From positions 7,166 through 71,165 of the forward strand of contig JAKFBU010000030.1 of NCBI GenBank assembly GCA_036676985.1: a stretch of DNA of 64,000 bases. Direction: 5' to 3'. Numbering within the stretch: the stretch's first letter is position 1; each line of letters opens with the position of its first letter. The DNA comes from Candidatus Sericytochromatia bacterium. Its GTDB lineage: Bacteria; Cyanobacteriota; Sericytochromatia; S15B-MN24; UBA4093. Below, piece after piece: positions 40,576-64,000 of the stretch. The translations under genes and the position numbers were made by a program. The notes below the pieces were generated by a model that ran no database searches, was not told the DNA's origin, and worked only from the letters and a program-made list of their open reading frames with translations.

Positions 40576-40602
40576 TCCTACCTCCCGGGGGCTCCAGCCC
40601 CC

Positions 40603-45614: not shown

Positions 45615-45969
45615 ACGGGCGCCTCGGAGTCGGATTCGAGGGGGGAGGGCACGAACATCAGCGGCACGACTCCTGGCGGCGGCAGGTGCGAAAACGAGTG
45701 GGAATAGCGCCCATGGGCTCAAAGATACCCCGAAGCAAGCAGGGTCAAACGGAGCTTCGACCGGCTAAACGGCACGCCACGGGCCCTAGCGGGAAAACAG
45801 GAAGCGCCGCGCCTTCGGCGCAGAATCTGGCGCCATGAGCGGGATCCGGCCGCCCTGTCCTCAACCCACGCTCGTTAGAACCGGGGGGGACGTGGTATGA
45901 GGGAGGCATGCCATTCGCGAGCCGACCGCGCACGTGTTCGATTCAAGGGGCGGATCGCAAGGAGGTTCC

Positions 45970-46275: not shown

Positions 46276-46303
46276 AGGGCGTTCACGTTAGAGGGCTCCA
46301 TCG

Positions 46304-47008
46304 ATGAGTGTCTTGCCTGAGAATGCCTCCGCGACCCGGCACGAGTTCGAGCTTGCCTGGCCCACCAACCTGGAGGCCTTCAGCCCCTACCGCCAGAAGG
46401 TGCGGGACTTCTTCGCCTCCCACCTGTACTGGGGAGAGGTGGCCGAGGACATGCTCCTCGGCCTCGACGAGGCCATGACCAATATCGTCCAGCATTCCTA
46501 CGCAGGCATGCCCGATCAGGTCGTCGCGCTGCGCCTGCGGCTGGAGGACTACTCCCCGCAGAACTATTCCGTCCTGACCATGGAGATGCTCGACCAGGGC
46601 TCCGGCGGCCAGGACTACGATCCGTCCCGACACCTCGAGCAGGCGCGCCAGGACCATGCGGCCCAGGAGCACCGGATGGGGTACGGGATCATCTTCCTCC
46701 ACCGCCTGATGGATCGCATTCATTACGAGAGCTCGGAGGCCGGCATGAACCGGTTGGTCCTGCAGAAGTGGTTCTCCAACGGACCGGTCGAGCCGCAATA
46801 TCGGGAGTCCCTGCTCAACGAGCTCCAGGTCCTGGAAGTCCTACCGCCGGTCGAGCCCGAGATGCTGCAGGCGGTGTGCGAGACTTACCCCGACCTCGAG
46901 GTCGGCGAGCAGCTGTTGATCCTGGGTTCCATCTTCGGTTGCGAGCAGGAGGCCATGCGCGCGGCCATCGTCCAGGCTCGCCTCAACCTGTCCGAGCGCG
47001 CCTCCTAG
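46304..47008 (+). CDS. RsbW/SpoIIAB-type anti-sigma-like serine kinase (HATPase_c_2) with ~80-aa C-terminal extension
   Basis: 234 aa. N-box LDEAMTNIVQHSY, G1 LDQGSGG, G2 GYGIIFLHRLMD. The residues after about aa 150 (NGPVEPQYRESLLNELQVLE...IVQARLNLSERAS) match no domain I recognise. Confidence 0.8.
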   Translation: MSVLPENASATRHEFELAWPTNLEAFSPYRQKVRDFFASHLYWGEVAEDMLLGLDEAMTNIVQHSYAGMPDQVVALRLRLEDYSPQNYSVLTMEMLDQGSGGQDYDPSRHLEQARQDHAAQEHRMGYGIIFLHRLMDRIHYESSEAGMNRLVLQKWFSNGPVEPQYRESLLNELQVLEVLPPVEPEMLQAVCETYPDLEVGEQLLILGSIFGCEQEAMRAAIVQARLNLSERAS

Positions 47009-47670
47009 CGGAGGTCAGGCGCATCAGGGTGCGCGAGCGCGGTGCGACGCTCCCTGCCCTGCAGCGCGAACACGTGGCGAATGATGCAGCTGCGCCGCCC
47101 ATCGGACATGGGGTCGAAGGCGATGCCAAGCGAGTACTCGGTGCCCCCACGGCTGAAATGGGGAACGCAGTGCCTGACGGTTCCCTCGAACTGCATCTCG
47201 CCGGCATCCGGGAGGTCGAGGGTCACCCGCACCTGCACCCCTGTCCGGACCGCCATCATGAAGACCACCGCGCAGCCCCCGCCCGACAGGTTCTTCAGGG
47301 GGGCCGCCGCGGGCGGCAGGAAGCGCCCCTCGGACTCGTGAAACACCTCCAGCTTGCAGGTGTCGAGGGTCGGGACGCGCACGTACTCGCGGCGCTGGAT
47401 GCGCTGGCACACGGTGGGCGAGGCGAGGCAGACGCGATCCGGGCTGACGGACCGGACCATGCACTGCAACTCGTAGAGGGCGTCGCGCTCCACCCGCACG
47501 CTCAGCTCCGCCGCCTTGACGGGGATCTTGACCCCGTGGCGCTGGGGGGGATCCACCTCGAAGCCTTCGGGGCTCACGGCCAGCACCTTCGCCTCGCACG
47601 GAACGAGGCGCTCCGAGACCGGCACCAGGAGGCAGACGGGTTGTTCCGCGAACAGCTTGACGCGTTGCAT
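47005..47670 (-). CDS. PilZ-domain c-di-GMP receptor, YcgR-like (PilZN-like + PilZ)
   Basis: 221 aa from ATG 47670, 5 nt after the phosphatase stop. PilZ motifs QRREYVR (RRxxxR) and NLSGGG (D/NxSxxG). Only the 3' 666 nt of ORF 47005..48354 is used. Confidence 0.82.
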   Translation of the reverse strand: MQRVKLFAEQPVCLLVPVSERLVPCEAKVLAVSPEGFEVDPPQRHGVKIPVKAAELSVRVERDALYELQCMVRSVSPDRVCLASPTVCQRIQRREYVRVPTLDTCKLEVFHESEGRFLPPAAAPLKNLSGGGCAVVFMMAVRTGVQVRVTLDLPDAGEMQFEGTVRHCVPHFSRGGTEYSLGIAFDPMSDGRRSCIIRHVFALQGRERRTALAHPDAPDLR

Positions 47671-47675
47671 GGAGG

Positions 47676-50111
47676 CTACCTGCAACCGAGCGCGAGGGAG
47701 GCATCGCGCATCACCACCAGGACCGTCATGTCGTCGAACGGCTGGGCCTCGCCCACAAAGGCCTCGACGCCCGCGAAGATCGCCGCGCGCAGCGCCTCCG
47801 CGTCCGCCCAGGGTCCCGCCGACACCAGCTCGATCAGCCGCTCCTCGCCGAATTCCTCGCCGGCGGCGTTGCGGGCCTCGGTGATGCCGTCGGTGTAGAG
47901 CACGATCGCCTCTCCCGGCGCGAGCTCGAGGTCCTGGCGCGCCAGCCGCCCGTTGAAGAGATCCGCGTCCAGGCCCAGCGCCACCCCCTGGGCCCACCTC
48001 GGCGTGACGCCGTCCGGGCGCACGTGCAGGGCGGGGGGATGACCGGCACATGCGAAGCTCGCACGGCCTGTGGCCGGATCCAGCGCGAGGAAGAAGGCCG
48101 TCACGTAGTTGCAGTCTCGGAGGTCCGAGCCGATCGTCGCGTTGACCTGCTTGAGGCCGGCGACCGGATCGGTGCAGCCGCCCAAGAGGGCCCGCACGGC
48201 CATGTGGGTCACGGCCATGTAGAGCGCCGCGGACACGTTCTTGCCCGAGACGTCCCCGATGAACAGGCCCAGGGGGCCCGCCGGGGCGTGAAGCACCTCG
48301 AACAGGTCCCCCCCGACCTCCATCGCGGGCAGGCAGCGGGCCGCCAGGGACCATCCGGGAATGGCCGGCAGCTCGGCGGGCAAGAGGCCCATCTGGATGT
48401 CCCGCGCGATGCGCAGCTCGGCGTCCATCTTCTCCTTCTGCTGGATGGCCGCCACGTAGAGGGCGTTCTGAACCGAGAGGGCGGTCTGGCCGGCGATGGC
48501 CACGAGCAGGTCCAGGTCCTGCGAGCCGAACGAGCGGGTCACGTAGTTGGAGCTCACGTAGAGCAGGCCGATCAGCTCATCCTTGACGATCATGGGCACG
48601 CACATGACGCTCTGGAGGTTGAGGGCCATGACGCTGGTGGTCTGGGTCGACGCATCGGCGCCCGTGTCCAGGATGCACAGGGGCTGGCGCGTCTCGAGGA
48701 CCTTGTTGGCAAAGGTATAACTGATCTCGAGCCCCTCCACGGGGTGGCCCTGGCGATTGAGGCCATAGCGACAGTGCAGGCCTTCTTCCGCCGGCAGGAT
48801 GACGAAGCCCGTATCCGCGTCGGTCAGCGACAGGGTGTGCTCCAGGAGCAACCGCAGGACCTGGTCGAGGTTCAGCGAGGAGGCGACCGCCTTGCCCAGC
48901 TCGTTGAGCGTGTCGAGGCGGCGGGCCTGCGAGGCTCCTTCCTGGCGCAGGGCCGCGATCCGGCGCAGCTCCAGCAACCACGAGACGAGCTCGCGGTAGG
49001 GGGCGGTTTGGTGCTCGACCTGAGCGGGATCGGCCGGGGCCTCCAGGCAGATCCCGAGCTTTGCGGTCTCGTCGCCCCGCTCGACGCGGATCGGCACGAT
49101 GACGCGCCCTTGATCGACGAGGGGAGCGCCCTGGGCGTGGGCCCGACCGAGCTGGATCGCATAAGGCTCCGCCTTCGCGCCGGTGGCGCAGAGGACGCGC
49201 CACGCTCCGTCTTCCTCGATCAGCAGGGCCCCGGAGGCGGCTCGGGTCGCGCCGAGCACCAAGCCGAGCAGATCCTGCTGCATCGCCTCGATCTCGTCGG
49301 CCGGGTTCGGGGCGTCCAGGAGAGCCTGCAAGAGGCCCCGCAGCCGCTCCGAGAGCCCGACCGCGGACAGGGACGTCTCCGGGGTGTCCGGGCCGGGGCT
49401 TGCGACCTGGAGGGCGACGGCGCTCGCGTTGTCCTGGCTCCCGTGCGCGATCGCCTCTTCCAGGGCGGCCCCCAGTTGTCGCTCCAGCTCCGCGGCGCCG
49501 CAGAGGTCGCGCAGCGAGTCGGTCCCCAGGGTCGAGTAGAAGCCGTCGGAGCACAGCAAGAGCATGTCGCCCGGCTCCAGCTCGAGCGTCTGGTGGGCGA
49601 TCTTGGGGGCCTCCTCCTTGCCCAGGTAGCGCAGGAGGGTCTTGCGCGCCGGATGGCCGAGCGCCTGCTCGGGCGTGAGCTGCTTGGTCTTCACGAGCTG
49701 GGTTGCGAGGGTATGGTCTTCAGTCAACTGCCGGACCTCGCCCCCCCGGATCAGGTAGGCACGAACCTCGCCCAGGTGGTAGAGGTCCAGGTCCTCGCCC
49801 TGCACGACGGCGACGGCGACGGTGGCCCCCATCCCCTTGCGCTCGGGGTGCTCGGCGATCTCCTGGCGGATCCGGGCGTTGGCTGCGAGGAGCGCGGGCT
49901 CGATCGCGGCCCCGGCCGCGAGGCTCGCCACCACCAGCTCGCTCGCGAGGTCGCCCCGGCCGGGGCCGCCGATCCCGTCTCCGACGGCGAAGATGCCGCG
50001 CTCCGGCGCGACCCAGACGAAATCCTCATTCAGCGCCCGGAGGCCGGCCGAGGTAACCGCGGCATGCGTCATGGGCGGAGAGATCCGCTGTGCCGTAACA
50101 GGAGCCTGCAT
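47676..50111 (-). CDS. Double phosphatase: N-terminal PP2C (PPM Ser/Thr phosphatase) - GAF - GAF - C-terminal SpoIIE/RsbU-type PP2C
   Basis: 811 aa.
- aa 14-236 (nt 49404-50072): LNEDF, GDGIGGPG, CSDGF, GSQDNAS.
- aa ~260-560: two GAF-like segments.
- aa 568-811 (nt 47679-48410): IARDIQMGLLP, VGGDLFEV, GDVSGKNVSAAL, AGHPPAL, LYTDGITEA, FDDMTVLVV. Confidence 0.88.
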   Translation of the reverse strand: MQAPVTAQRISPPMTHAAVTSAGLRALNEDFVWVAPERGIFAVGDGIGGPGRGDLASELVVASLAAGAAIEPALLAANARIRQEIAEHPERKGMGATVAVAVVQGEDLDLYHLGEVRAYLIRGGEVRQLTEDHTLATQLVKTKQLTPEQALGHPARKTLLRYLGKEEAPKIAHQTLELEPGDMLLLCSDGFYSTLGTDSLRDLCGAAELERQLGAALEEAIAHGSQDNASAVALQVASPGPDTPETSLSAVGLSERLRGLLQALLDAPNPADEIEAMQQDLLGLVLGATRAASGALLIEEDGAWRVLCATGAKAEPYAIQLGRAHAQGAPLVDQGRVIVPIRVERGDETAKLGICLEAPADPAQVEHQTAPYRELVSWLLELRRIAALRQEGASQARRLDTLNELGKAVASSLNLDQVLRLLLEHTLSLTDADTGFVILPAEEGLHCRYGLNRQGHPVEGLEISYTFANKVLETRQPLCILDTGADASTQTTSVMALNLQSVMCVPMIVKDELIGLLYVSSNYVTRSFGSQDLDLLVAIAGQTALSVQNALYVAAIQQKEKMDAELRIARDIQMGLLPAELPAIPGWSLAARCLPAMEVGGDLFEVLHAPAGPLGLFIGDVSGKNVSAALYMAVTHMAVRALLGGCTDPVAGLKQVNATIGSDLRDCNYVTAFFLALDPATGRASFACAGHPPALHVRPDGVTPRWAQGVALGLDADLFNGRLARQDLELAPGEAIVLYTDGITEARNAAGEEFGEERLIELVSAGPWADAEALRAAIFAGVEAFVGEAQPFDDMTVLVVMRDASLALGCR

Positions 50112-50289
50112 TGCGTCGCCTACCTTAACTGCGCCCCGAACAGCGGGGCGTGCCCGATCTGGATGCCCGCCCCGCGTCCACGTGATGCGCGGCGGAGGGG
50201 GGCGAACCTATTTTATAGCGAAACGCGGCGAGGGTATATAGCATGGGAGCATCGCCCTCGCGCCCGGTCGCCATGTCACGACAGCAGAA

Positions 50290-51990
50290 ATGGACGTTAT
50301 GACCCGCAACTCTCCCGCTCGGCCGTCCGGCCAGCCCCGCCCCTACGCCACGGCGTTCCAGGACCTGGCTGCGGCCTTCAGCGCCTCCACCCTGGCCGCG
50401 AACGGCAGCCGGGCCCTGTCGCCCCTCAAGCTGCCGGAGCGCCCATGGACGCCGCTCGACCTGGATACGGTCCTGCTGGATGTCCTGAGCAAGGTGGCCC
50501 AGATCGCCAAGGCCGATCGCGGCTTCATCTCCCTGGTCGACGAGTCCGGAGGGCCGATTTACTCATTGGTTCTCGGGGGCACGGGCGACGTCCATACGCT
50601 GTTCCCGTACTGCACCACCCTGCTGCAGGACGTGATGACCGAACGCAGGCCCCTCTGGATCGACGACGCCCAGCGTCACCCCCTCTTGCAGCACTCCGAC
50701 AGCGTCTTCGAGCTCGGGCTGAGAAACTTGATCGTCTTGCCGCTCCTGCTGTCGGAGGTGGTGGTGGGCGTCATCTACATGGACCGGAGCTCCCTCGAAG
50801 AGCGGCTCACCCCCTCGGATCACGCGATCCTCGAGAGCTTCGCGACCTACGCGGCCCTGGCCGTCCACAGCGTGTGGGCCAACAACGAGATGTCCGCCCG
50901 CGTTCGGAAGCTCCAGCTCATCAACGAGGTCTCCCTGGCGATCAGCGCCACCCGCAAGATCGAGCGCCTGCTCTCGTTGATTCTCCAGCACTGCTTGTCG
51001 CTCTCCGGCGGCGACCAGGGCTACATCCTGCTGGGCACCCACGGCGACCTCAAGTGTCTCGCCAGCCTGGACAGCTCCGGGCAGCCGGTGGAAACCCTCG
51101 CGATCAGCCGCAGCATCGTCTCGCGCTGCATCGACGAGCGACGCGCGATCTGCATCCTCGATACGGGCCTGGACGCGGCCAACCAGACGGCCAGCGTGAT
51201 GGCGCTCGACTTGCGATCGGTCATCTGCGTCCCATTGGTGGCGAGCCAGCAGCAGCTCGGTGCGCTGTACATCAGCAGCAACGCCATCACCAAGACCTTC
51301 ACGGCCCAGGATCAGTCCCTGCTGGAGGCGATCGCGAACCAGGCGGCCCTCACCATCCAGAACGCCCAGTTGCTCGACGAGCAGGAGCGCCAGATCCATG
51401 AACTGGAGCGGGCCCTCCAGCTGGTCCACGAGGCTCAGATCAAGGCCGTGACGGACGGATTGACGGGGCTCTTCAACCATCGCTTCTTCAAGGAGCAGTT
51501 GATCAACGCCCTGGCGGAGGCCGAGCGCTACGGCACGCCGCTCAGCGTCATCATGGTGGACCTGGACCACTTCAAGCGGATCAACGACACCTACGGCCAC
51601 CAGACGGGCGACGAGGTGCTCCGCCAAGCCAGCGCGTGCCTTCGCCAGACGGTCCGCGACAGCGACATCGTGGCGCGGTATGGCGGGGAGGAACTGGCCG
51701 TCTTGCTGCCCCATACCGACGCCGCCGGGGGCGCCTTGGCCGCCGAACGGATCCGCGAGGCCATTGCCGCCATGGCCTTGACGACGATCGCGGGCGAGCC
51801 CTTCACCGTCACGGCGAGCTTGGGCGTCGCCTCGCTGAGGGAGGGTTCGACCGCCGTCGAGCTGCTGGAACGTGCGGACAAGGCCCTCTACTCGGCCAAG
51901 CACGGCGGGCGCAATCAGGTGGGACTGGATGATCCGGCGGCCGCCACGAGCCTGAATCCCGCTCCGGAGAAACCTCCGAGCGGCTCCTAG
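50290..51990 (+). CDS. GAF-GAF-GGDEF diguanylate cyclase (GGEEL variant, RxxD I-site present)
   Basis: 566 aa with two GAF segments, then DGLTGLFNHRFF, VDLDHFKRINDTYGH, RDSD (51655-51666), YGGEEL (51679-51696) and ALYSAKHGGRNQV. Confidence 0.88.
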   Translation: MDVMTRNSPARPSGQPRPYATAFQDLAAAFSASTLAANGSRALSPLKLPERPWTPLDLDTVLLDVLSKVAQIAKADRGFISLVDESGGPIYSLVLGGTGDVHTLFPYCTTLLQDVMTERRPLWIDDAQRHPLLQHSDSVFELGLRNLIVLPLLLSEVVVGVIYMDRSSLEERLTPSDHAILESFATYAALAVHSVWANNEMSARVRKLQLINEVSLAISATRKIERLLSLILQHCLSLSGGDQGYILLGTHGDLKCLASLDSSGQPVETLAISRSIVSRCIDERRAICILDTGLDAANQTASVMALDLRSVICVPLVASQQQLGALYISSNAITKTFTAQDQSLLEAIANQAALTIQNAQLLDEQERQIHELERALQLVHEAQIKAVTDGLTGLFNHRFFKEQLINALAEAERYGTPLSVIMVDLDHFKRINDTYGHQTGDEVLRQASACLRQTVRDSDIVARYGGEELAVLLPHTDAAGGALAAERIREAIAAMALTTIAGEPFTVTASLGVASLREGSTAVELLERADKALYSAKHGGRNQVGLDDPAAATSLNPAPEKPPSGS

Positions 51991-52758: not shown

Positions 52759-53802
<1,044 letters not shown>

Positions 53803-53805
53803 GCC

Positions 53806-55008
53806 ATGGCGAGCAAGAAGAGCGTCGCGGACCTCGGTCCGCAAGATCTCAAGGACAAGCGGGTGCTGGTCCGGGCGGACTTCAACGTCCCCATGGACGA
53901 TGGCCGGATCACGGACGACACCCGCATCCGCGCCACCTTGCCCACCATCAAGTACCTGACGGACCGGGGCGCCAAGGTTCTCTTGACGTCCCACCTCGGC
54001 CGTCCCAAGGGCAAGACCCCCGAGCTGACGCTTCAGCCGGTGGCCAAGCGCCTGGGCGAGCTCCTGGGCCAGGACGTGCGCATGGCGCCCGACGCCATCG
54101 GCCCCGAGGTCCAGAAGCTCGCCGAGGACCTCAAGCCCGGAGATGTCCTCCTCCTCGAGAACATCCGCTTCTACCCGGAAGAGGAGAAGAACGACCCCGC
54201 GTTCGCCAAGCAGCTCGCCTCCGAGGCGGACCTCTACGTGAACGACGCCTTCGGCACCGCCCACCGGGCGCATGCCTCCACGGCCGGGGTCGCCGAGTAC
54301 CTGCCCGCGGTCGCGGGCCTCTTGCTCGACAAGGAGATCTCGGTGATGGGCAAGGCCCTCTCGAACCCCGAGCGGCCCTTCGTCGCCATCATCGGCGGCT
54401 CCAAGGTCTCGAGCAAGATCGGCGTCATCGAGAACCTGATCGGCAAGGTCGACACGCTCGTCATCGGCGGCGGGATGATCTTCACCTTCTTCAAGGCCCA
54501 GGGCCTCGAGGTCGGGCGATCGCTCGTCGAAGCGGACAAGCTGGAGCTCGCCCGCGAGCTCATGACCAAGGCCGCCGCCAGCGGGACCACGCTCCTGCTG
54601 CCCGTGGACGTCCTCGTCGCCCCCGACATCAAGGCCGCTAAGGCCAGTGCCGTGGTCGACGTCGACAAGATCCCGCCCACCGAGATGGGCGTGGACATCG
54701 GCCCCAAGTCCATCGAGGCCATCCGCCGGGCCCTCGGCGACTCCAAGACGATCGTCTGGAACGGTCCCATGGGCGTCTTCGAGAACCCGGCCTTCGCCGA
54801 GGGGACCCGGGCCGTGGCCCAGTTCGCGGCGGAGCGGACCGAGAAGGGCGCCACCACCATCGTGGGCGGCGGCGACTCGGTGGCGGCCATCGAGCAGATG
54901 GGCCTCGCCGACAGGTTCACCCACGTTTCGACCGGCGGCGGCGCCTCGCTCGAGTTCCTCGAAGGGCTCGAGCTCCCGGGCGTCGCGGCCCTGAGTGAGA
55001 AAGCATGA
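53806..55008 (+). CDS. pgk: Phosphoglycerate kinase
   Basis: 400 aa with [15 protein letters not shown] and GGGDS motifs. Confidence 0.95.
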
Positions 55009-55778
55009 GCAAGCGCAAGCCGGTCATCGCCGGCAACTGGAAGATGTTCAAGACGACCCAGGAAGCCCGCGACTTCGCGCGCGGGCTCTCCGAGGAGCTC
55101 AAGCGCACGACCGATCCCACGGTGGTGATCTGCCCGCCCTTCACCTCGCTGCACGTGCTCCGCGAGGAGCTCGGCAACACCGAGGTGCAGCTCGGCGCGC
55201 AGAACATGCACTGGATGGACGAGGGCGCCTACACCGGCGAGATCTCGCCCGTGATGCTCCGGGACGCGGGGGCCACCCACGTGATCATCGGGCACTCGGA
55301 GCGGCGCCAGTACTTCCACGAGACGGACGGCACGGTCAACCGCAAGGTCCAGGCCGCCCTCCAGTGGCAGCTCACGCCGATCATCTGCGTCGGTGAGACG
55401 CTCGAGGACCGCGAGGTCCAGCTCACGGACAACGTGATCATCGTCCAGACCCAGCGGGCGCTGTTGAACATCGCCCCGGAGCTGGTCGCGCAGTGCATGT
55501 TCGCGTACGAGCCCGTCTGGGCCATCGGCACGGGCAAGACCTGCGCGTCGGACGAGGCCAACCGGGTCTGCGGCATCATCCGCGAGACGGTGGGCAAGAT
55601 GGCCGGGCCCGAAGTGGCGGATGCCGTGCGCATCCTCTACGGCGGCTCGGTCAAGCCCGAGACGATCGCCGAGCAGATGGCCCAGCCGCACATCGACGGA
55701 GCCCTGGTCGGCGGCGCGAGCCTCGACCCCAAGAGCTTCGGGGCCATCGTCAACTTCCGTTCGGCCGCCGCACGCTAA
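55005..55778 (+). CDS. tpiA: Triose-phosphate isomerase
   Basis: 257 aa with [24 protein letters not shown] and YGGSV motifs. 4-nt overlap with pgk. Confidence 0.95.
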
Positions 55779-55944
55779 GTCCCCTTCGGGACTGACCTGG
55801 AGACCCTCCCTGGCTGCAGCCGCCCTTCCGGTGGCTTCCCCCCTTCTAGAGGGGGGGCCAGGGGGGGTCCTCCTCTTATCGTCGCACAGTTTTTGGCCCG
55901 CCCGCAGCTTGAAATAGGCTCACGGCGCACGTTAGGGTGAAATC

Positions 55945-57486
55945 ATGAAAAACGGACCGCTCGCACTCATCGTATTGGACGGCTGGGGCATCAACCCGCG
56001 GCCGGAAGGCAACGCGATCGCCATGGCCCAGAAGCCCAACTGGGACCGCTTCATGGCGACCTACCCGTGCGTGCCGATCCCCACGTCGGGCGAGTCGGTC
56101 GGCCTGCCGCCCGGGCAGATGGGCAACTCCGAGGTGGGCCACACCAACATGGGCGCGGGCCGGGTGGTCTACCAGGACCTCGTGCGCATCAACAAATCCA
56201 TCTACGACGGGGACTTCTTCGAGAACCCGGTGCTCGTCGAGGCCATGCAGGCCGCCAAGCGCAAGGGCGGTCGGGTCCACCTCATCGGGCTGGTCTCGGA
56301 CGGCGGCGTCCACAGCTCCCTGGAGCACCTCTACGCCCTCTTGGAGCTCGCGAGCCGCCAGAGCGTCCCCAGCATCTTCGTCCATGCCTTCATGGACGGC
56401 CGGGACACGCCGCCCACCTCGGGCGGGCGCTTCCTGTACGAGCTCGACAAGCGACTGGCCGCCACGAGCGGCGCCCAGCTCGCCACCATCGTCGGCCGCT
56501 ACTACGCCATGGACCGCGACAAGCGCTGGGACCGGGTGGAGCTCGCGTACCGCGCGATGGTGGACGGCGTGGCCGAGCACCATGCCCGTACGGGTTCCGA
56601 GGGCATGTCCGAAGCCTACGCGCGGGGCGAGACCGACGAGTTCATCAAGCCCATCCTCGTGGCCGAGGACGGCCGGATCCGCACGGGCGACACGGTGATC
56701 TTCTTCAACTTCCGGCCGGACCGGGCCCGCGAGATCACCCGGACGCTCATCGACCCCGCCTTCAACGAGTTCGAGCGCCCGAACCAGCCGGACGTGCACT
56801 TCGTGTGCATGACCCAGTACGACGAGAGCTTCAAGCTGCCGCTCGCCTTCGGCCCCCAGAGCCTGGACCGCATCCTGTCCCCGGTGCTGGCGGACGCCGG
56901 CGTGCGCCAGCTGCGCACGGCCGAGACCGAGAAGTACGCGCACGTGACCTTCTTCTTCAACGGCGGGGTCGAGAAGCCCTATCCCGGCGAGGAGCGGGTG
57001 CTGGTGCCGAGCCCCAAGGTGGCGACGTACGATCTGCAGCCGGAGATGAGCGCGTTCCAGGTGGCGGACGTGGCCGAGCAGTGGATCAAGGACGCCAAGG
57101 CGGACGTCATCATCATGAACCTGGCCAACGCGGACATGGTGGGCCACACGGGCAACATGGGCGCGACGGTCAAGGCCATCGAGGCCCTGGACATCTGTCT
57201 GGGCCGGATCATCGGGGCCATCGAGGCCAAGGGGGGCACGGCCCTCATCACGGCGGACCACGGCAACGCCGAGCAGATGTACGATCCGGCCTCCGGCGAG
57301 ATCGTCACCTCGCACACGCTGAACCCGGTGCCCCTCATCCTGGTGGGCGGCCAGGGCGCCAAGCTGCAGAGCGGCCTCTTGTCGGACATCGCGCCGACCA
57401 TGCTCGACCTTCTGGGCATCCCGCAGCCCAAGCAGATGACGGGGCACTCGCTCCTGGTCCGCGAGCCGTCCACGCTGATCAAGTGA
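55945..57486 (+). CDS. gpmI: 2,3-bisphosphoglycerate-independent phosphoglycerate mutase
   Basis: 513 aa with ILDGWG, GNSEVGHTNMGAGR, SDGGVHS, ADMVGHTG and TADHGNAE motifs. Confidence 0.95.
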   Translation: MKNGPLALIVLDGWGINPRPEGNAIAMAQKPNWDRFMATYPCVPIPTSGESVGLPPGQMGNSEVGHTNMGAGRVVYQDLVRINKSIYDGDFFENPVLVEAMQAAKRKGGRVHLIGLVSDGGVHSSLEHLYALLELASRQSVPSIFVHAFMDGRDTPPTSGGRFLYELDKRLAATSGAQLATIVGRYYAMDRDKRWDRVELAYRAMVDGVAEHHARTGSEGMSEAYARGETDEFIKPILVAEDGRIRTGDTVIFFNFRPDRAREITRTLIDPAFNEFERPNQPDVHFVCMTQYDESFKLPLAFGPQSLDRILSPVLADAGVRQLRTAETEKYAHVTFFFNGGVEKPYPGEERVLVPSPKVATYDLQPEMSAFQVADVAEQWIKDAKADVIIMNLANADMVGHTGNMGATVKAIEALDICLGRIIGAIEAKGGTALITADHGNAEQMYDPASGEIVTSHTLNPVPLILVGGQGAKLQSGLLSDIAPTMLDLLGIPQPKQMTGHSLLVREPSTLIK

Positions 57487-59245: not shown

Positions 59246-59267
59246 GCGCCTCTTAGGGCGCCTTTTT
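59245..59267 (+). terminator. Hairpin + T5 after the 65-aa ORF, overlapping the fliR 3' end
   Basis: GGCGCC (59245-59250), loop TCTTAG, GGCGCC (59257-59262), TTTTT (59263-59267). The right arm encodes the last fliR codons on the other strand. Confidence 0.55.
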
Positions 59268-60074
59268 GATGTCCTGGCGCTGGGACAGCACCACGCGCTG
59301 CACGTCGGTGATCATCTGCTCCGAGTAGTGGTGCACGGCGGCGACGATGTTCGGGATCATGAGGCTCACGATCAAGAGCCCCACGCCCGGCTTGATGGTC
59401 TGCACGAAGTCCAGCAGGTTCTGCGCCTGTGGCGTGGTGCGCTGGATGACGCCGAGGGTCACGTCGATGAGCAGGACCACGATGACGGCCGGCATGGCGA
59501 GCTGCAGGACGATGCCCAGCAGCGCCCCTGTCACCTGCAGCATGACCCCCCAGAGGGCGGGCGTGACGCGGAAGCCGCCCACCGGCACCAGCTCGTAGGA
59601 CTGGAAGAAGCCCCCCAGGAACAGCAGGTGCCCTCCCATCAGGATGAAGACCGTGAGGGCCATGTAGTAGAAGATCTGCCCGGTCGGCGTCGAGTTGGTG
59701 CGGATCATGGGGTTCATGGTGGAGATCATCGTGAGGCCGATGGCCTGCGCCACGAAGTCGCCCGCCCCCTGGATGGCGAAGTGGATGATCGAGGCCGCGA
59801 AGCCGATCGCCATGCCGAAGAACAGCTCGGAGATCAGCACGATCGTGAAGGCCAAGAAGTGGCTCGGCGCCGGTACCATGTCGGGCTGGCTCGCGACGTA
59901 GACGAGCGCCAGGGAGAAGGCCAGCCCCACGCGCCCCATGGCCGGGATCACGCGGCTTCCGAAGATCGGCGCCTGCAGGCAGAGGCCGACGCAGCGAGCG
60001 AGGATCAGCAGGAAGCCGGGGGTGAGGAGCGCCAACCAGTTGGCAAATTGAATGAGCCCCTGGTCGCCCCGCAT
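59253..60074 (-). CDS. fliR: Flagellar biosynthetic protein FliR
   Basis: 273 aa polytopic membrane protein. N-terminal LLILARCVGLCLQAPIFGSRVIP is typical of FliR. It follows fliQ with a 1-nt spacer. Confidence 0.88.
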   Translation of the reverse strand: MRGDQGLIQFANWLALLTPGFLLILARCVGLCLQAPIFGSRVIPAMGRVGLAFSLALVYVASQPDMVPAPSHFLAFTIVLISELFFGMAIGFAASIIHFAIQGAGDFVAQAIGLTMISTMNPMIRTNSTPTGQIFYYMALTVFILMGGHLLFLGGFFQSYELVPVGGFRVTPALWGVMLQVTGALLGIVLQLAMPAVIVVLLIDVTLGVIQRTTPQAQNLLDFVQTIKPGVGLLIVSLMIPNIVAAVHHYSEQMITDVQRVVLSQRQDIKKAP

Positions 60075-60075: not shown

Positions 60076-60348
60076 CTACCGCACCAACATCTGAGGGATG
60101 CTCGACCACAGGCTCGTGAGGAAGCCCGTCATGGTCGAGAGCAGCCACGGCCCGAGCAGGATGAGGACGCCGAACACGGCGACCGCCTTCGGGACGAAGG
60201 ACAGCGTCTGCTCCTGGATGGACGTGATGGTCTGCAGCAAGGCCACCGTGAACCCGACCACCAGGCTCGTGATGAGCACCGGCCCCGAGAGCAGGAGCAC
60301 CATGATGACGGCCTGGGTGAGGACGTGCAGGACGGTCGTGTCGGACAT
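60076..60348 (-). CDS. fliQ: Flagellar biosynthetic protein FliQ
   Basis: 90 aa. ALLQTITSIQEQTLSFVPK motif and two TM helices. Confidence 0.92.
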   Translation of the reverse strand: MSDTTVLHVLTQAVIMVLLLSGPVLITSLVVGFTVALLQTITSIQEQTLSFVPKAVAVFGVLILLGPWLLSTMTGFLTSLWSSIPQMLVR

Positions 60349-60351: not shown

Positions 60352-61539
60352 TTACTTGAAGCTCTGGACCAACGCTGACATCACCAGATGCCAGCCGTTG
60401 GCGAGCGTGAAGACCAGGAGCTTGAACGCGTTCGAGATCATCTGGGGTGGCAAGGAGCTCATACCCAGTGCCAACAGGACGTTCGAGACCACCAGGTCGA
60501 TGACGATGAACGGGATGTAGATGATGAAGCCGATCTTGAAGGCTGTTGTCAGCTCGCTGACCATGAAGGCCGGGATGACGACGTGCAGGGGCACGTCGGC
60601 CGCGGTGTTCGGCGCGGGCGTCCGCGAGAGGCGCACGAAGAACGCGAGCTCCTGCTGGGCCGTCTGGCGGATCATGAACTCCTTGAGGGGCGCCTGGGCC
60701 CGGTCCATCATGACCTGCTGGGAGACCTGCCGGGCGAAGTAGGGCTGCAGGGCCGACTTGTCGATGGACTCCCACACGGGCGCCATGGTGTACATGGAGA
60801 GGAACAGGGCGAGGCCCAGCATCACCGGGTTGGGCGGGATGCTCTGGGTGCCCAGAGCCTGGCGCAGGAAGCCCAGGACGATGATCGTCCGCATGAAGGA
60901 CGTCGTCATGATGACCAGGAACGGCAGCACCGTGAGCGACGCCAAGAGGAAGATGAGGCCGACCGAGGTGGTCATGTTGGGCGCGTTCAGGGGCTCGCGC
61001 AGGTCGAAGGACGTGAAGGGGTTAGCGGGCATCCCCTGGGCTGCGGCGGGCAGCGCGAACAGGGCGCCCATGGCAACGGCCATGAGCCCGAGACCCAGGG
61101 CCTGACGCCACCAGGGGCGCTTGCCCTCGTGCGGCTCGGCGCTTTCGACCATCTGCGCGAAGTCGGGCGCCGCGTCCTCCGCCGAGAGCTCGGCGATGGA
61201 CTGGAAGCTTGCGTCGGTCATGCCCACCAGGAAGTTACGCTGGCCCACGTTCACGACCATGAGCGCGCGCTTGTGGTCGATGTTCAGGCGATCGAGCACC
61301 TTGATGCCCTTGGATCGCGCGCTGAAGCCGGGGATCTGGCCGTTGCGCGTCAGCCGCAGGGCGACGTAGCCGAGGCCGAGCATCAGGAGCGTGACGATGA
61401 GGAGCTGGATCATGTAGGGCCCGATGCCGAGGTCCGCCGAGGGCAGGGCCTGCGGGGCGGCGAGGCTCGAGGTCGCGAGCGCCTCCTGAAAGGACGAGGT
61501 CGCCGTGAGCAGCGACATGCTGGTGGTGCTGGTGTCCAT
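60352..61539 (-). CDS. fliP: FliO-like domain and FliP in one uninterrupted reading frame (apparent FliO-FliP fusion)
   Basis: The N-terminal ~130 aa have a single TM helix (YMIQLLIVTLLMLGLGYVALRL) plus IKVLDRLNIDHKRALMVVNVGQRNFLVGMTDASFQSIAEL, which looks like FliO. Then comes a signal-like helix, and FliP (VIMTTSFMRTIIVLGFLRQALGTQSIPPNPVMLGLALFLSMYTMAPV). There is no stop between them. The internal ATG at 61152 (MVESAE) has no SD sequence within 20 nt. Confidence 0.85.
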   Translation of the reverse strand: MDTSTTSMSLLTATSSFQEALATSSLAAPQALPSADLGIGPYMIQLLIVTLLMLGLGYVALRLTRNGQIPGFSARSKGIKVLDRLNIDHKRALMVVNVGQRNFLVGMTDASFQSIAELSAEDAAPDFAQMVESAEPHEGKRPWWRQALGLGLMAVAMGALFALPAAAQGMPANPFTSFDLREPLNAPNMTTSVGLIFLLASLTVLPFLVIMTTSFMRTIIVLGFLRQALGTQSIPPNPVMLGLALFLSMYTMAPVWESIDKSALQPYFARQVSQQVMMDRAQAPLKEFMIRQTAQQELAFFVRLSRTPAPNTAADVPLHVVIPAFMVSELTTAFKIGFIIYIPFIVIDLVVSNVLLALGMSSLPPQMISNAFKLLVFTLANGWHLVMSALVQSFK

Positions 61540-61541: not shown

Positions 61542-61883
61542 TTACCCCATCGTGCTCGACAGCTCGCTCTGGAAGATCTTGGTGATCTTGATGCCAAAGT
61601 TGGAGCCGATCACAACCACTTCGCCCTGGGCGACGATCTTGCCCGCGGCGATCACGTTGACGGGCTCGCCCGCGAGCTGGTCGAGCTCGATGACAGAGCC
61701 TTCCATCATCTGCATGACCTGCTTGAGCGGCAGGCTGGTGCGTCCCAGCTCCACCGAGACCTGCAGGCGGATGTCGCGCAGGAGGTCGAGGCTGCCTCGG
61801 ACGTTGGTGTCCCCGAAGCCTCCGCCCGTCAAGGGGCCGAACTTGACGGCGTTGTAGCCTTGGCGTTGGTCTTGCCAGTCCAT
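61542..61883 (-). CDS. fliN: Flagellar motor switch protein FliN
   Basis: 113 aa. SpoA domain IRLQVSVELGRTSLPLKQVMQMMEGSVIELDQLAGEPVNVIAAGKIVAQGEVVVIGSNFGIKITKI. Confidence 0.9.
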   Translation of the reverse strand: MDWQDQRQGYNAVKFGPLTGGGFGDTNVRGSLDLLRDIRLQVSVELGRTSLPLKQVMQMMEGSVIELDQLAGEPVNVIAAGKIVAQGEVVVIGSNFGIKITKIFQSELSSTMG

Positions 61884-61889: not shown

Positions 61890-63275
61890 TTACCTCCCGA
61901 GGTTCTGCGTGGCGTCCGCGCTGAGGCGGAGTACCTTGATGGCCTTGTGGTCCTCGATCATGACGGCCCGACCCTTGCCGACGGGCTTCCCGTTGATGCA
62001 CAGCGTGACGCTGTTGTCCTTGGGACGCGGCAGCTCGAGGATGGAGCCCTCGGCCATGGTCAGCCATTCGGTCAGGGGCAACTCCGTGCTGCCGAGCTGC
62101 GCGCTGACCTGGACGTAGACGTTGGAGAGCTGCCCCATGGCGCTGTCGAAGGAGACGTCGAAGTCCGGCCGCCGCGCCGAGATGACGTTCGCCACCGCGG
62201 GCTCCTGGTCCGGTTCGTCCGAGTGGTCCTCCTGGACGGCAGCGGCGAGGGTGCTCGCCGGCTCGACCGGATCCAGGAAGCCCAGCTGGCGCGCGAGGTC
62301 GTTCAGCTGATTCTGGAAGCTCTGGGCGATCTGCTCGGTCTCATGGCCGATGGACGCGAAGTCGAACTCGGGCTCGGGCGTCTTGGGCAGCTCGGGGATC
62401 TTGATCTTCATGTCGGGTTCGCGCTCTTCGGGGCGCGGATCCGAGAAGCTGACCGTGAAGTCGGCCTTGCCGAGGAAGAGCGTCGAGAAGGCCACGAGCC
62501 AGCCCGCGGTGGAGACGGCGTTGGTGAAGGCGAGGTTCGGGTCGGCGACCACGCCGAGTGCTGTCAGCATGGCCTGCAGCGAGGGCGCCACCGAGGCTGC
62601 GCCCGCGAAGAGCTTGTGCGCGACCCAGATGCCCGCCGCCCCGAACCAGAAGCCGAGACTCATGCCGTAGAAGTAGCCGATGGTCATGCGCCAGAAGGCC
62701 CAGCCCGAGCTGCCGCCGAAGGGCTCCTGACGAGGGTCGAAGGCCTCCTGGCGCAGGGCGGCGAAGCCGAAGCCGGCGATCGCGAACACCACCGCGTACC
62801 CGAGCGCTCCCCACAGGGATCCGCCGAGGAAGTTCGCCTGCAAGAGGAAGTCCGAGACCTTGGGCAGCTGGTCGAGGTTCACCTCGATGGGCGTGCCCAG
62901 GAGCATCCGCGCCACCACCCGCAGCCAGCGCGCGGGGCTCTCCATGCCGTTCGGCGAGAGCATCAGGGAGTAGCCCGCCCCCGAGCCCCACAGGTTCACG
63001 AGCGTGAAGGGCAGGATCAAGGCCGCCACCACGGCGCCGCGCCAGTAGGGCATCGGCTTGATGACGACCTTGGGGATCGAGGAGCGGCAGAAGAAGTGGT
63101 AGCCCACGCTCACGGCGAAGCTCAACAGGCCGAAGGCCGCGAACACGAGCAGGACCGGGCTCAGGCCCGTCCCCGACCGGAGGGCGAAGATGAGGAACAT
63201 GAGCAAGGGAGCGATCCCCAGCCAGAGGGGGATCGCCTGGGGGCGCAGGAGCTTGGCGCGTTCCTTGGCGGTCAC
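61890..63275 (-). CDS. Polytopic membrane protein with C-terminal FliN/SpoA (SctQ-type) domain
   Basis: 461 aa. aa ~15-290 have about 7 hydrophobic helices (for example IPLWLGIAPLLMFLIFAL, VLLVFAAFGLLSFAVSVGYHFF, LWGALGYAVVFAIAGFGFAAL). An acidic linker follows. aa 383-461 (nt 61893-62129) read VYVQVSAQLGSTELPLTEWLTMAEGSILELPRPKDNSVTLCINGKPVGKGRAVMIEDHKAIKVLRL, which is SpoA-like. It is located between fliM and fliN. Confidence 0.8.
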   Translation of the reverse strand: MTAKERAKLLRPQAIPLWLGIAPLLMFLIFALRSGTGLSPVLLVFAAFGLLSFAVSVGYHFFCRSSIPKVVIKPMPYWRGAVVAALILPFTLVNLWGSGAGYSLMLSPNGMESPARWLRVVARMLLGTPIEVNLDQLPKVSDFLLQANFLGGSLWGALGYAVVFAIAGFGFAALRQEAFDPRQEPFGGSSGWAFWRMTIGYFYGMSLGFWFGAAGIWVAHKLFAGAASVAPSLQAMLTALGVVADPNLAFTNAVSTAGWLVAFSTLFLGKADFTVSFSDPRPEEREPDMKIKIPELPKTPEPEFDFASIGHETEQIAQSFQNQLNDLARQLGFLDPVEPASTLAAAVQEDHSDEPDQEPAVANVISARRPDFDVSFDSAMGQLSNVYVQVSAQLGSTELPLTEWLTMAEGSILELPRPKDNSVTLCINGKPVGKGRAVMIEDHKAIKVLRLSADATQNLGR

Positions 63276-63285: not shown

Positions 63286-64000
63286 TCAATCCGCGCCCAG
63301 GCGGACGATCTGGACCGCCTTGCGCAGGCCGTCGGCGCTGGTGCCGGGCTTGGCGAGGATGCGCGCGCCGCCGCCCAGCTGGACCATGAGCGGATCGGTG
63401 ACGCCCTGCTCGAGGACGATCACGTCCTCCTCCTCGAGGCCCTGCAGCTCCGCGACGGTCATGGTGGTGGCGCCCAGGTAGGCGACGACCTGGGTCGGCG
63501 TGTCGCCCAGGTGGTGGAGCCGGGCGTCGATGTCCTCGCCGCCCGTCTGGACGAAGGTGTTCTCGGCGGCGACCCGCAGGCTGTCGGAGTAGGGCACCAG
63601 GTAGGGCTGCGGGATCGCGAACATGAGCCGGCCCATGGGCTGGGAGGGGACGCTCACGCGGTAGGTGATGGCGGCCATGGGCGTGTTGGTGGCGAGGCCC
63701 ATGAAGATCTCCTGGAGCTCGCCCAGGTCGGGCATCTCCGGGAAGGTGCCGTGCTGGTTGTCGGCCTCGCTGAAGATGTCGGCCCACTGTTCGGTGAAGG
63801 TCTCGCTCATGCGGCGGACCACCTCGTCGGCCATGTCCAGGTGCTCGTCGCCGAACCGGCGGTTGGCGGCCACTCCCGTCAGGCTCTTGGCTGTCCCGTG
63901 ATCGAGGAGGACGAACATGCCTCCGGGCTGCTCGGTGAACTGCAGGATGCCCCACAGCGCGCCCTGGCCGTACTTCTCCTGCAGGGTGGCGAAGGGGACG
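63286..64000 (-). CDS. fliM: Flagellar motor switch protein FliM (partial; 5' end beyond the right window edge)
   Basis: C-terminal SpoA-like VVAYLGATTMTVAELQGLEEEDVIVLEQGVTDPLMVQLGGGARILAKPG. The frame stays open upstream of the track Met (hand translation VPFATLQEKYGQGALWGILQFTEQPGGMFVLLDHG...) as far as position 64000. Confidence 0.85.
   Translation of the reverse strand, partial: VPFATLQEKYGQGALWGILQFTEQPGGMFVLLDHGTAKSLTGVAANRRFGDEHLDMADEVVRRMSETFTEQWADIFSEADNQHGTFPEMPDLGELQEIFMGLATNTPMAAITYRVSVPSQPMGRLMFAIPQPYLVPYSDSLRVAAENTFVQTGGEDIDARLHHLGDTPTQVVAYLGATTMTVAELQGLEEEDVIVLEQGVTDPLMVQLGGGARILAKPGTSADGLRKAVQIVRLGAD

What the first reader, a model, noticed from the sequence alone, without database searches (positions are those of the whole stretch)
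61890..63275. Membrane-anchored SpoA (FliN-like) domain protein sits between fliM and fliN
Canonical C-ring proteins (FliM, FliN, FliY) are soluble. Here a 461-aa ORF sits at the position of a C-ring gene (fliM stop 63286, this ORF 63275-61890, fliN start 61883). It has about 7 predicted transmembrane helices in its first ~290 aa, an acidic linker, and a C-terminal ~75-aa segment that aligns by eye with the FliN/SpoA fold of the neighbouring fliN and the fliM C-terminus. So three SpoA-domain genes sit in a row, one of them tethered to the membrane. I do not know of a described flagellar or injectisome component with this architecture. It could tether part of the C-ring or sorting platform to the membrane, or act as a stator/export-gate adaptor.
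Basis: partly seen in the sequence, partly recalled or inferred. Interest (0 to 1): 0.72.

Follow-up and report, generated by a model that had tools for sequence, protein, structure and literature searches.

The report
Membrane-anchored FliN-like flagellar motor protein
Non-photosynthetic relatives of cyanobacteria (Sericytochromatia) encode, between the flagellar switch genes fliM and fliN, a conserved protein that joins a new six-helix membrane domain to a FliN-type domain; no such part has been described for a flagellar motor, and its role is still inferred.

Summary
ORF 61890-63275 (-) is a real 461-aa gene, translationally coupled between a fliM-like gene and fliN, upstream of a fused fliO-fliP, fliQ and fliR. 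Its C-terminus (aa 382-450) is a clear SpoA/FliMN_C domain (Pfam E=7e-17), closest to FliN.

The N-terminus is an integral membrane domain with 6 helices, not 7. AlphaFold2 gives it pLDDT 85-96. The N-in/C-in topology puts the SpoA domain in the cytoplasm.

It is not a frameshift artefact. About 60 full-length homologue clusters exist in two deeply diverged subfamilies (458-475 aa and 551-718 aa). Nearly all that carry a taxonomic label are Candidatus Sericytochromatia, and every locus examined has the order fliM-X-fliN-fliOP-fliQ-fliR.

The membrane domain has no Pfam or NCBIfam family and no PDB fold match. A profile search of 1.84 billion representative proteins found no relative outside this architecture. 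No paper describing it was found.

The TM6-to-SpoA linker stays at 104-127 aa, while other loops vary 4- to 10-fold.

Best reading (inferred, not shown): a lineage-specific third SpoA subunit, in the gene position of FliY, that pairs with FliN or FliM at the C-ring base and ties it to the membrane part of the rotor or export gate. It is a new variant of a known kind.

The parts
61890..63275 (-). Gene X: 461-aa membrane-anchored SpoA protein (whole ORF including stop)
   Evidence: ORF list. RBS and coupling to both neighbours. GC3 0.95. 100% match to cluster P0001 and 29 further homologue clusters.
62472..63245 (-). N-terminal integral membrane domain, aa 11-268. Six TM helices: aa 11-33, 40-65, 77-98, 147-173, 189-223, 246-268. 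Orphan fold.
   Evidence: AF2 pLDDT 83-96 over most of the domain. Same six-helix layout in the long-subfamily model. Hydropathy. Positive-inside charge distribution. No Pfam hit, no PDB sequence hit, no PDB fold hit. Only 16 representatives among 1.84e9 proteins.
62640..62678 (-). Glycine zipper G200-x3-G204-x3-G208-x3-G212 in TM5, invariant across both subfamilies
   Evidence: Invariant columns of alignment A4 and A1.
62712..62756 (-). Cytoplasmic loop 4-5 (aa 174-188) with invariant R175, E177 and the FDPRQxPFGG motif. Most conserved loop (0.78 mean pairwise identity).
   Evidence: In the AF2 model, residues 177-179 of this loop and residues 70-72 of loop 2-3 are both beta strands; their pairing is my inference.
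62376..62471 (-). Post-TM6 cytoplasmic motif, aa 269-300 (GKADFTVxFSDPRPEEREPDMKIxIPELP). Conserved (0.70) but low pLDDT; candidate partner-binding segment.
62283..62360 (-). Linker helix, aa 306-331
   Evidence: AF2 secondary structure. Linker helices also occur in the long subfamily model.
62196..62270 (-). Variable acidic spacer, aa 336-360 (0.37 identity)
   Evidence: The total TM6-to-SpoA spacing is held at 104-127 aa in 21 diverse members.
62133..62195 (-). Conserved pre-SpoA segment, aa 361-381 (NVISARRPDFDVSFDSAMG; 0.86 identity)
61926..62132 (-). C-terminal SpoA (FliMN_C) domain, aa 382-450, FliN-type
   Evidence: Pfam E=6.9e-17. NCBIfam fliN 2.1e-13 and SctQ 8.6e-14, both below their cutoffs. 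H. pylori FliN 5xrw_A E=3.1e-10. 33% identity to the adjacent FliN against 24% to FliM-C. Foldseek probability about 1.0 to FliN/SctQ chains.
63286..64000 (-). fliM-like gene, C-terminal 237 codons (runs off the window end)
   Evidence: The L001 orthologue is 306 aa. The L013 orthologue passes the Pfam FliM cutoff.
61542..61883 (-). fliN (113 aa), bona fide FliN
   Evidence: TIGR02480 95.5 bits, above the 84.05 cutoff. Pfam E=2.7e-23.
60352..61539 (-). Fused fliO-fliP (395 aa)
   Evidence: Pfam FliO + FliP on one product; TIGR01103 240.9 bits, above the 217.45 cutoff. Start mapped. The fusion is present in all related loci.
60076..60348 (-). fliQ (90 aa)
   Evidence: Pfam Bac_export_3, E=7.9e-26.
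59253..60074 (-). fliR (273 aa)
   Evidence: Pfam Bac_export_1, E=2.5e-49.

Best explanation
X is a third SpoA-domain subunit of the flagellar switch/export platform, specific to Sericytochromatia.

Shown:
- It is a single polypeptide with a six-helix inner-membrane domain of an otherwise unknown family.
- Its conserved loops lie on the predicted cytoplasmic face.
- A cytoplasmic linker of constrained length (about 110 aa) leads to a FliN-type SpoA domain.
- It is co-transcribed and translationally coupled with fliM and fliN.

Inferred:
- SpoA domains work only as intertwined dimers, and X has just one. It must therefore pair with another SpoA domain, most likely FliN or the FliM C-terminus. 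FliY does this in Campylobacter and Helicobacter C-rings.
- This would place X in the SpoA spiral at the base of the C-ring.
- The fixed-length linker would run up the inside of the C-ring, with the membrane domain sitting in the rotor-associated membrane next to FliF and the export gate.
- X would then staple the C-ring base, which is also the FliH/ATPase docking site, to the membrane part of the rotor. It would co-rotate with the rotor rather than act as a stator.
For: - **SpoA domain.** Clear and FliN-like (Foldseek).
- **Topology.** Six TM helices, N-in/C-in, in two independent AF2 models from subfamilies only 22-26% identical. Charge distribution is positive-inside.
- **Operon.** Gene order fliM-X-fliN-fliOP-fliQ-fliR holds in all 10 distinct loci examined, with 6-11 nt intergenic gaps and RBS-like runs.
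- **Evolutionary rate.** X diverges at about the same rate as FliM and FliR: 33% against 29-32% identity to the most distant locus. This fits a stoichiometric structural part.
- **Conserved face.** Cytoplasmic loops and the post-TM segment are the most conserved (0.62-0.78). The two longer periplasmic loops are the least conserved (0.40-0.44) and tolerate 47-184 aa of low-complexity insertion.
- **Spacer.** TM6-to-SpoA spacing is held at 104-127 aa across both subfamilies, whereas the N-tail varies from 8 to 104 aa. This is consistent with a spacer constraint.
- **Precedent.** Three-SpoA C-rings, with a lineage-specific paralogue pairing with FliM and FliN and helping to dock FliH, are described in PMC6946799.
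- **Flagellar context.** flgD, flgE and flagellin are in the same cluster in relatives. FliP passes the flagellar cutoff but not the injectisome cutoff.
Against: - No interaction has been tested. No multimer prediction was possible with these tools.
- The SpoA part has low pLDDT as a monomer (38-74). This is expected for an obligate dimer but is uninformative.
- A membrane protein fixed to a rotating C-ring must co-rotate inside the stator ring. That is geometrically possible but unprecedented.
- A homodimer (X2) that never enters the C-ring would fit the same data.
- The Glu before the hydrophobic patch of FliN (GEVVV) is Arg, Lys or Ala in X (GRAVMI), so FliH binding may differ.
- The rest of the flagellar gene set (fliF, fliG, fliH/I/J, motAB) could not be inspected in these genomes.
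Confidence: 0.45

Rival explanations
1. X is an export-apparatus adaptor or assembly factor, not a C-ring subunit. It would sit with the export gate (FlhA, FlhB, FliOPQR) in the membrane. Its SpoA domain, as an X2 homodimer or an X-FliN heterodimer, would be a membrane-proximal dock for the FliH N-terminus and the FliI ATPase. Alternatively it would chaperone gate assembly as FliO does.
For: - The gene lies immediately upstream of fliN-fliOP-fliQ-fliR.
- SpoA dimers are the known docking module for FliH/SctL (PDB entries 4yxc and 4yx7 listed; FliY/FliM-FliH data in PMC6946799).
- The conserved cytoplasmic face and the glycine zipper suggest packing against other membrane proteins.
Against: - There is no similarity to FliO (hhalign probability 0.2%; no Pfam FliO hit).
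- A long linker of fixed length is not needed if the dock is at the membrane.
- FliN already supplies the FliH site in model motors.
Confidence: 0.25
2. X is a signal-input or brake module. X holds the gene position of FliY, whose N-terminal CheC domain feeds signalling into the switch. The membrane domain of X could sense a membrane-linked state (proton motive force, lipid, a ligand) and pass it to the switch. Or it could hold the rotor to the membrane as a clutch or brake.
For: - It occupies the position of fliY after fliM.
- The long subfamily adds a conserved N-terminal cytoplasmic peptide plus a polyacidic tract, reminiscent of the short signalling peptides on FliM and FliY.
- Invariant R175, E177 and near-invariant R196 lie at the membrane-cytoplasm boundary.
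Against: - There is no recognisable sensor domain.
- The window subfamily lacks the N-terminal peptide.
- Tight coupling with the structural genes suggests constitutive, stoichiometric production.
Confidence: 0.12
3. X is a stator-like or ion-conducting element. The glycine-zipper helices would form a channel that couples ion flow to the C-ring.
For: GxxxGxxxGxxxG in TM5 and a Gly/Ala-rich TM4 are invariant. In my own knowledge, such zippers occur in some channel-forming proteins.
Against: - No Pfam match at all at E<=10 in the membrane domain; that library, to my knowledge, includes the MotA/ExbB family.
- No invariant acidic residue lies within a TM helix.
- No conserved periplasmic or peptidoglycan-binding domain; periplasmic loops are the least conserved.
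- No fold similarity to any solved channel or stator.
Confidence: 0.05
4. Artefact: a frameshift or assembly error fused a membrane-protein gene to a fliN/fliY gene.
For: None found.
Against: The same architecture is found in about 60 clusters at 90% identity, most of them full length, from independent assemblies. They fall into two subfamilies down to 22% identity. No separate genes are seen at any locus.
Confidence: 0.01

Closest known systems
FliY (CheC-like domain + SpoA; Bacillus, Thermotoga, Campylobacter/Helicobacter)
   Same: - A second FliN-type SpoA protein encoded next to fliM.
- It coexists with FliM and FliN, giving three SpoA proteins per motor.
- The N-terminal region is a different, lineage-specific module.
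- In ε-proteobacteria FliY pairs with FliM and FliN and helps dock FliH (PMC6946799).
   Different: - X has no CheC-like domain and no EIDAL peptide.
- Its N-terminus is a six-helix membrane domain.
- NCBIfam FliY models score far below cutoff (32 against 218 bits).
FliN (TIGR02480)
   Same: The SpoA fold. The SpoA domain of X is closest to FliN: 33% identity to the adjacent FliN, and the best solved match is H. pylori FliN.
   Different: - FliN is a small soluble protein, and a true FliN is encoded next door.
- X scores 50.0 bits against a cutoff of 84.05.
- X carries a membrane anchor plus linker of about 380 aa.
SctQ / SctQ-C (injectisome sorting-platform pods)
   Same: SpoA domain (TIGR02551 E=8.6e-14; YscQ-C 3uep E=2e-6). 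In injectisomes the SpoA pods are held to a membrane ring through SctK and SctD, which is functionally what a tether would do here.
   Different: - X has one SpoA domain, not two.
- It has no conserved internal translation start.
- Its score is below cutoff (52 against 101 bits).
- The context is flagellar (flgD, flgE, flagellin; flagellar-type FliP).
- In X the tether is covalent.
FliO
   Same: A flagellum-specific inner-membrane protein with a cytoplasmic domain, encoded beside fliN and fliP.
   Different: No detectable homology. FliO has one TM helix. FliO is present separately here, fused to FliP.

Membership tests
SpoA / FliMN_C superfamily (PF01052) | Match to the Pfam model above the gathering score | tested here: met
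   61.6 bits against a 23.8 cutoff, E=6.9e-17, aa 382-450, profile positions 2-70 of 73.
SpoA / FliMN_C superfamily (PF01052) | SpoA fold similar to solved FliN/SctQ structures | tested here: met
   Foldseek probability 0.98-1.0 to Salmonella, T. maritima and H. pylori FliN and to YscQ-C. E is only about 1e-2 because the monomer model is low-confidence. Sequence hits to the same chains.
SpoA / FliMN_C superfamily (PF01052) | Forms an intertwined dimer with another SpoA domain | not testable with these tools
   No multimer prediction or experiment was available.
FliN (TIGR02480 equivalog domain) | Score at or above the NCBIfam cutoff | tested here: not met
   50.0 bits against 84.05. The neighbouring gene scores 95.5 and is the FliN.
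FliN (TIGR02480 equivalog domain) | Small soluble protein (about 100-140 aa) without membrane segments | tested here: not met
   461 aa with six TM helices.
FliY | CheC-like phosphatase domain N-terminal to SpoA | tested here: not met
   No Pfam hit in aa 1-295 at E<=10. NF005995 32.1 bits against 218; NF006272 13.6 bits against 219.
FliY | Encoded next to fliM, coexisting with FliM (and sometimes FliN) | tested here: met
   fliM-X-fliN in all loci.
SctQ (TIGR02551) | Score at or above cutoff; tandem SpoA1-SpoA2 | tested here: not met
   52.2 bits against 100.8. Only one matched SpoA stretch in Pfam.
SctQ (TIGR02551) | Internal translation start giving a free SpoA fragment | tested here: not met
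   No Shine-Dalgarno sequence lies before M380. The GTG at V361, preceded by AGGAG in the window, is GTC in L005-L011 and is not Val in L003, L004 and L012.
FliO (PF04347) | Match to the FliO model, or profile similarity to the local FliO | tested here: not met
   No Pfam hit. hhalign probability 0.2% against the window FliO-FliP.
MotA/ExbB-type stator | Match to a MotA_ExbB-type Pfam model | tested here: not met
   Zero Pfam families at E<=10 in the membrane domain. That the library holds the MotA/ExbB model is my own knowledge.
MotA/ExbB-type stator | Partner with a conserved membrane Asp and a peptidoglycan-binding domain | tested here: inconclusive
   No conserved acidic residue in any TM helix, and periplasmic loops are poorly conserved. 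A separate partner protein could not be searched for.
Flagellar (not injectisome) type III system | Flagellar-type FliP; hook and filament genes in the cluster | tested here: met
   TIGR01103 fliP 240.9 bits, above 217.45; yscR 189.8, below 208.6. flgD, flgE and flagellin flank the operon in L001 and L002.

The most novel reading that the evidence does not exclude
About 30 or more copies of X form a membrane-embedded ring that co-rotates with the MS-ring. Each copy would be linked by a fixed-length strut to the FliM/FliN spiral. The Sericytochromatia C-ring would then be attached to the membrane at both its top (FliG-FliF) and its base. That would be a rotor design not seen in any studied flagellar motor, built on a membrane domain with no known relatives.
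Probability: 0.25. Interest if true: 0.8.

Novelty: new variant of a known kind. Interest (0 to 1): 0.6.

Why it matters
In every motor studied so far, the C-ring (FliG, FliM, FliN/FliY) is made of soluble proteins. It is linked to the membrane only through FliG-FliF (my own knowledge).

A conserved SpoA subunit that is itself an integral membrane protein implies one of three things:
- a second, covalent link from rotor to membrane;
- a membrane-anchored dock for the export ATPase;
- a new input into the switch.

Any of these would widen the known design space of flagellar motors and of type III sorting platforms.

X also marks the flagellum of Sericytochromatia, a non-photosynthetic lineage related to oxygenic Cyanobacteria, as distinctive. 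Its FliM is divergent, FliO and FliP are fused, and X is added. The profile search found no relative of the membrane domain outside this protein family.

The membrane domain is an orphan fold. Its invariant glycine zipper and Arg/Glu pair give clear targets for mutagenesis.

Tried and rejected
- **Frameshift or fusion artefact.** Rejected. Full-length homologues are common and no locus has split genes.
- **SctQ-like internal start giving a free SpoA fragment.** M380 has no Shine-Dalgarno sequence. V361 is GTG preceded by AGGAG in the window and GTG in L001/L002, but GTC or another residue in the other eight loci. It is not conserved, so rejected.
- **Homology of the membrane domain to known families.** None found:
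  - Pfam at E<=10: zero hits.
  - NCBIfam: only SpoA-region hits.
  - Profile against PDB sequences: only noise, E>=0.5.
  - hhalign against the window FliO-FliP and FliR: probability 0.2-0.3%.
  - Foldseek of two models against the PDB: only GPCR-type noise for the membrane part, with probability <0.45, TM-score <0.27 and rmsd >16 Å.
- **Relatives outside Sericytochromatia.** The N-terminal profile search of 1.84e9 representatives gave 16 hits. All are members or fragments of the same family.
- **Contig of the window itself.** Two look-ups found nothing on record.
- **Literature.** Searches for Sericytochromatia flagella, SpoA plus transmembrane, FliN-like plus transmembrane, and PF01052 gave no description of this protein.
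- **Not attempted.** A read-through "fusion" of the X C-terminus and FliN as a stand-in for multimer prediction. Any two linked SpoA domains would be expected to dimerise in such a model, so it would not discriminate.
Full report
**1. The observation**

The minus strand at the right end of the window carries a compact flagellar operon:
- a fliM-like gene, 63286 to beyond the window end;
- gene X, 61890-63275, 461 aa;
- fliN, 61542-61883;
- a fused fliO-fliP, 60352-61539;
- fliQ, 60076-60348;
- fliR, 59253-60074.

X starts with GTG, 10 nt after the fliM stop and behind a GGGGGGAG run. fliN starts 6 nt after the X stop, behind GGGAGG. X has GC3 = 0.95, like the other genes of this roughly 67% GC genome.

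Pfam finds a FliMN_C/SpoA domain in all three consecutive genes. For X the hit is aa 382-450, E=6.9e-17, 61.6 bits against a cutoff of 23.8. The coordinates and the "three SpoA genes in a row" statement are therefore correct.

**2. Architecture of X**

Hydropathy and an AlphaFold2 model built on 18 homologues agree. The model has mean pLDDT 75, with 83-96 over most of the membrane part. It shows:
- six membrane-spanning helices: aa 11-33, 40-65, 77-98, 147-173, 189-223 and 246-268;
- two short non-spanning helices, 114-126 and 231-239;
- short beta strands at 70-72 (loop 2-3) and 177-179 (loop 4-5), which probably pair and would then lie on the same side of the membrane.

Lys+Arg counts across the family put the N-tail, loop 2-3, loop 4-5 and the post-TM6 segment inside. 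The topology is N-in/C-in, and the SpoA domain is cytoplasmic.

A second AlphaFold2 model was made for a member of the distant long subfamily (P0039, 551 aa, 28 sequences). It gives the same six-helix layout, followed by a helix-containing linker and the SpoA domain.

The 112-aa linker is more than an acidic tract:
- aa 269-300 is a strongly conserved motif, GKADFTVxFSDPRPEEREPDMKIxIPELP (0.70 mean pairwise identity), with low pLDDT. It is a candidate binding peptide.
- aa 306-331 is a helix.
- aa 336-360 is a variable acidic spacer (0.37).
- aa 361-381 (NVISARRPDFDVSFDSAMG) is the most conserved part of the whole protein (0.86).

**3. Not an artefact, and who has it**

A word-indexed search of 5.8 billion proteins returned 30 clusters at 45-100% identity. 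Most are full length, at 458-467 aa.

A profile of the membrane domain alone was run with HMMER against 1.84 billion representatives. It found only 16 proteins. They are members or fragments of the same family, including a second subfamily of 551-718 aa with 33 clusters.

The two subfamilies are homologous over the whole membrane domain (hhalign probability 99.8%, E=7e-30). They share only 22-26% identity overall.

Species-representative genomes that carry the gene are labelled Candidatus Sericytochromatia: LC028, LC031, S15B-MN24 CBMW_12, UBA8530 and others. A few carry the labels "Stenomitos", "Pantanalinema" and "Woesearchaeota". These are probably binning or labelling errors.

In all 10 distinct loci examined the order fliM-X-fliN-fliOP-fliQ-fliR is kept. 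flgD and flgE lie upstream in some, and flagellin lies downstream in L001.

Against the most distant locus (L013), X is 33% identical. FliM is 29%, FliR 32%, FliOP 42%, FliN 44% and FliQ 47%. X therefore evolves like the structural proteins around it.

**4. What the two domains are**

*SpoA domain.* It is FliN-type:
- 33% identical to the adjacent FliN, against 24% to FliM-C.
- The best solved match is H. pylori FliN (5xrw_A, E=3e-10), followed by T. maritima FliN and YscQ-C.
- Foldseek matches only FliN, FliM-C and SctQ chains with high probability.
- It fails the curated cutoffs for FliN (50 against 84 bits), SctQ (52 against 101) and FliY (32 against 218). The neighbouring gene passes the FliN cutoff at 95.5 bits.

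X is therefore a paralogue, not the FliN of this motor.

*Membrane domain.* It is an orphan:
- zero Pfam families at E<=10;
- no NCBIfam model;
- no PDB sequence match;
- no fold match in the PDB from either model; only GPCR-type noise;
- no similarity to the local FliO-FliP or FliR.

Residues invariant across both subfamilies are G101, G159, R175, E177, the TM5 glycine zipper G200/G204/G208/G212, and G241.

**5. Clues to function**

- Cytoplasmic loops are the most conserved parts of the membrane domain (0.62-0.78). The two longer periplasmic loops are the least conserved (0.40-0.44).
- In the long subfamily, periplasmic loop 3-4 swells to as much as 184 aa of low-complexity sequence, and the N-tail to 62-104 aa.
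- The TM6-to-SpoA spacing stays at 104-127 aa in all 21 diverse members. Constant length with poor sequence conservation in its middle is consistent with a spacer between two fixed attachment points.
- No conserved internal start could release a free SpoA domain. The SpoA domain is therefore always tethered.
- No acidic residue is conserved inside a TM helix, and there is no conserved periplasmic domain. This argues against a stator-like role.

**6. Most likely mechanism (inferred)**

SpoA domains function as intertwined dimers. In the Salmonella C-ring, one FliM-C and three FliN domains per subunit form the basal spiral (entries 8UMD, 8UMX and 9N49, listed). That spiral also docks FliH (4yxc).

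In Campylobacter and Helicobacter a third SpoA protein, FliY, pairs with FliM and FliN and takes part in FliH docking. SpoA paralogues have arisen repeatedly in different lineages (PMC6946799).

By analogy, and from the coupled gene order, X most probably pairs with FliN (or FliM-C) at the C-ring base. The linker has a 26-residue helix plus about 85 flexible residues. By my own estimate it can span the roughly 15 nm from the C-ring base to the membrane; this was not computed.

The rotor, MS-ring and export gate turn together (my own knowledge). A membrane domain located inside the stator radius, next to FliF or the gate, could therefore co-rotate without mechanical conflict.

I give this C-ring-tether reading 0.45. 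The rivals are:
- an export-gate or FliH-dock adaptor or assembly factor, 0.25;
- a FliY-like signal or brake module, 0.12;
- a stator- or channel-like role, 0.05;
- an artefact, 0.01 or less.

The data here do not separate the first two readings.

**7. Comparison with known systems and novelty**

X works most like FliY: a lineage-specific FliN paralogue with a different N-terminal module, encoded after fliM. It fails FliY's defining CheC-domain test. It is a member of the SpoA/FliMN_C superfamily but not of the FliN, FliY or SctQ equivalogs.

Functionally, a covalent membrane tether resembles what SctD and SctK do for SctQ pods in injectisomes. The context here is clearly flagellar, however.

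Sources name the protein only "FliM/FliN family flagellar motor switch protein". No paper in the searchable library describes it.

I rate it a new variant of a known kind. Interest is 0.6: surprising to a motor specialist and conserved across a whole class. However, its function is only inferred, and as far as I know the organisms are uncultured.

Noticed in passing
window 60352-61539 (-); also L001 11731-12912, L003 5141-6181, L013 12446-13687: FliO and FliP are fused into one 346-413 aa protein (Pfam FliO + FliP on the same product) in the window and in every related Sericytochromatia locus.
   Followed up: partly
window 63286-64000 (-); L001 9079-9999; L013 9074-9982: The fliM-like gene is very divergent. 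In the high-GC lineage only its SpoA domain is detected by Pfam, and phmmer finds no solved FliM middle domain. The L013 orthologue just passes the Pfam FliM cutoff (30.2 against 27 bits). By eye, the canonical GGXG FliG-binding motif was not evident in the window sequence, but this was not rigorously aligned.
   Followed up: partly
P0036-P0075 (long subfamily), e.g. L013 10001-12025: The long subfamily of X has a conserved N-terminal cytoplasmic peptide (DxxLxxLxRPLxMA) followed by a polyacidic tract, 62-104 aa before TM1. It also has a 47-184 aa low-complexity Pro/Lys/Ala-rich insertion in periplasmic loop 3-4. Both are absent from the window subfamily.
   Followed up: partly
L005 (DATNQJ010000027.1, 'Stenomitos sp.' MAG); P0008 ('Pantanalinema sp.'); P0073 ('Woesearchaeota'): MAGs labelled as filamentous oxygenic cyanobacteria or as archaea carry this Sericytochromatia-type flagellar gene. 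The proteins encoded on L005 are 85-94% identical to the window's fliM-like and X proteins. This probably reflects mis-binning or mislabelling, or a Sericytochromatia associate of cyanobacterial cultures.
   Followed up: no
window 62193-62195 (GTG, V361 of X) with AGGAG at 62202-62206: An in-frame GTG preceded by a well-spaced AGGAG could start a 101-aa free SpoA fragment, as in SctQ-C. The GTG is shared only with L001 and L002; the other eight loci have GTC or a different residue.
   Followed up: yes
window 45934-51990: A cluster of partner-switching and signalling genes: STAS anti-anti-sigma (45934-46275, +), HATPase_c_2 anti-sigma kinase (46304-47008, +), PP2C-GAF-SpoIIE phosphatase (47676-50111, -) and GAF-GAF-GGDEF diguanylate cyclase (50290-51990, +).
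   Followed up: no
window 31898-45225 (-): Three large genes on the minus strand: a fatty-acyl-AMP-ligase-like gene (38779-40575); a 2189-aa type I PKS with KS-AT-DH-KR-ACP and a terminal reductase (31898-38467); and a 1540-aa Ser/Thr kinase-AAA_16-TPR protein (40603-45225).
   Followed up: no
window 52783-57486 (+): A glycolytic gene run of gap, pgk, tpiA and cofactor-independent phosphoglycerate mutase, close to the flagellar operon. fliR is not followed by the flagellin gene that follows it in L001 and L002.
   Followed up: no
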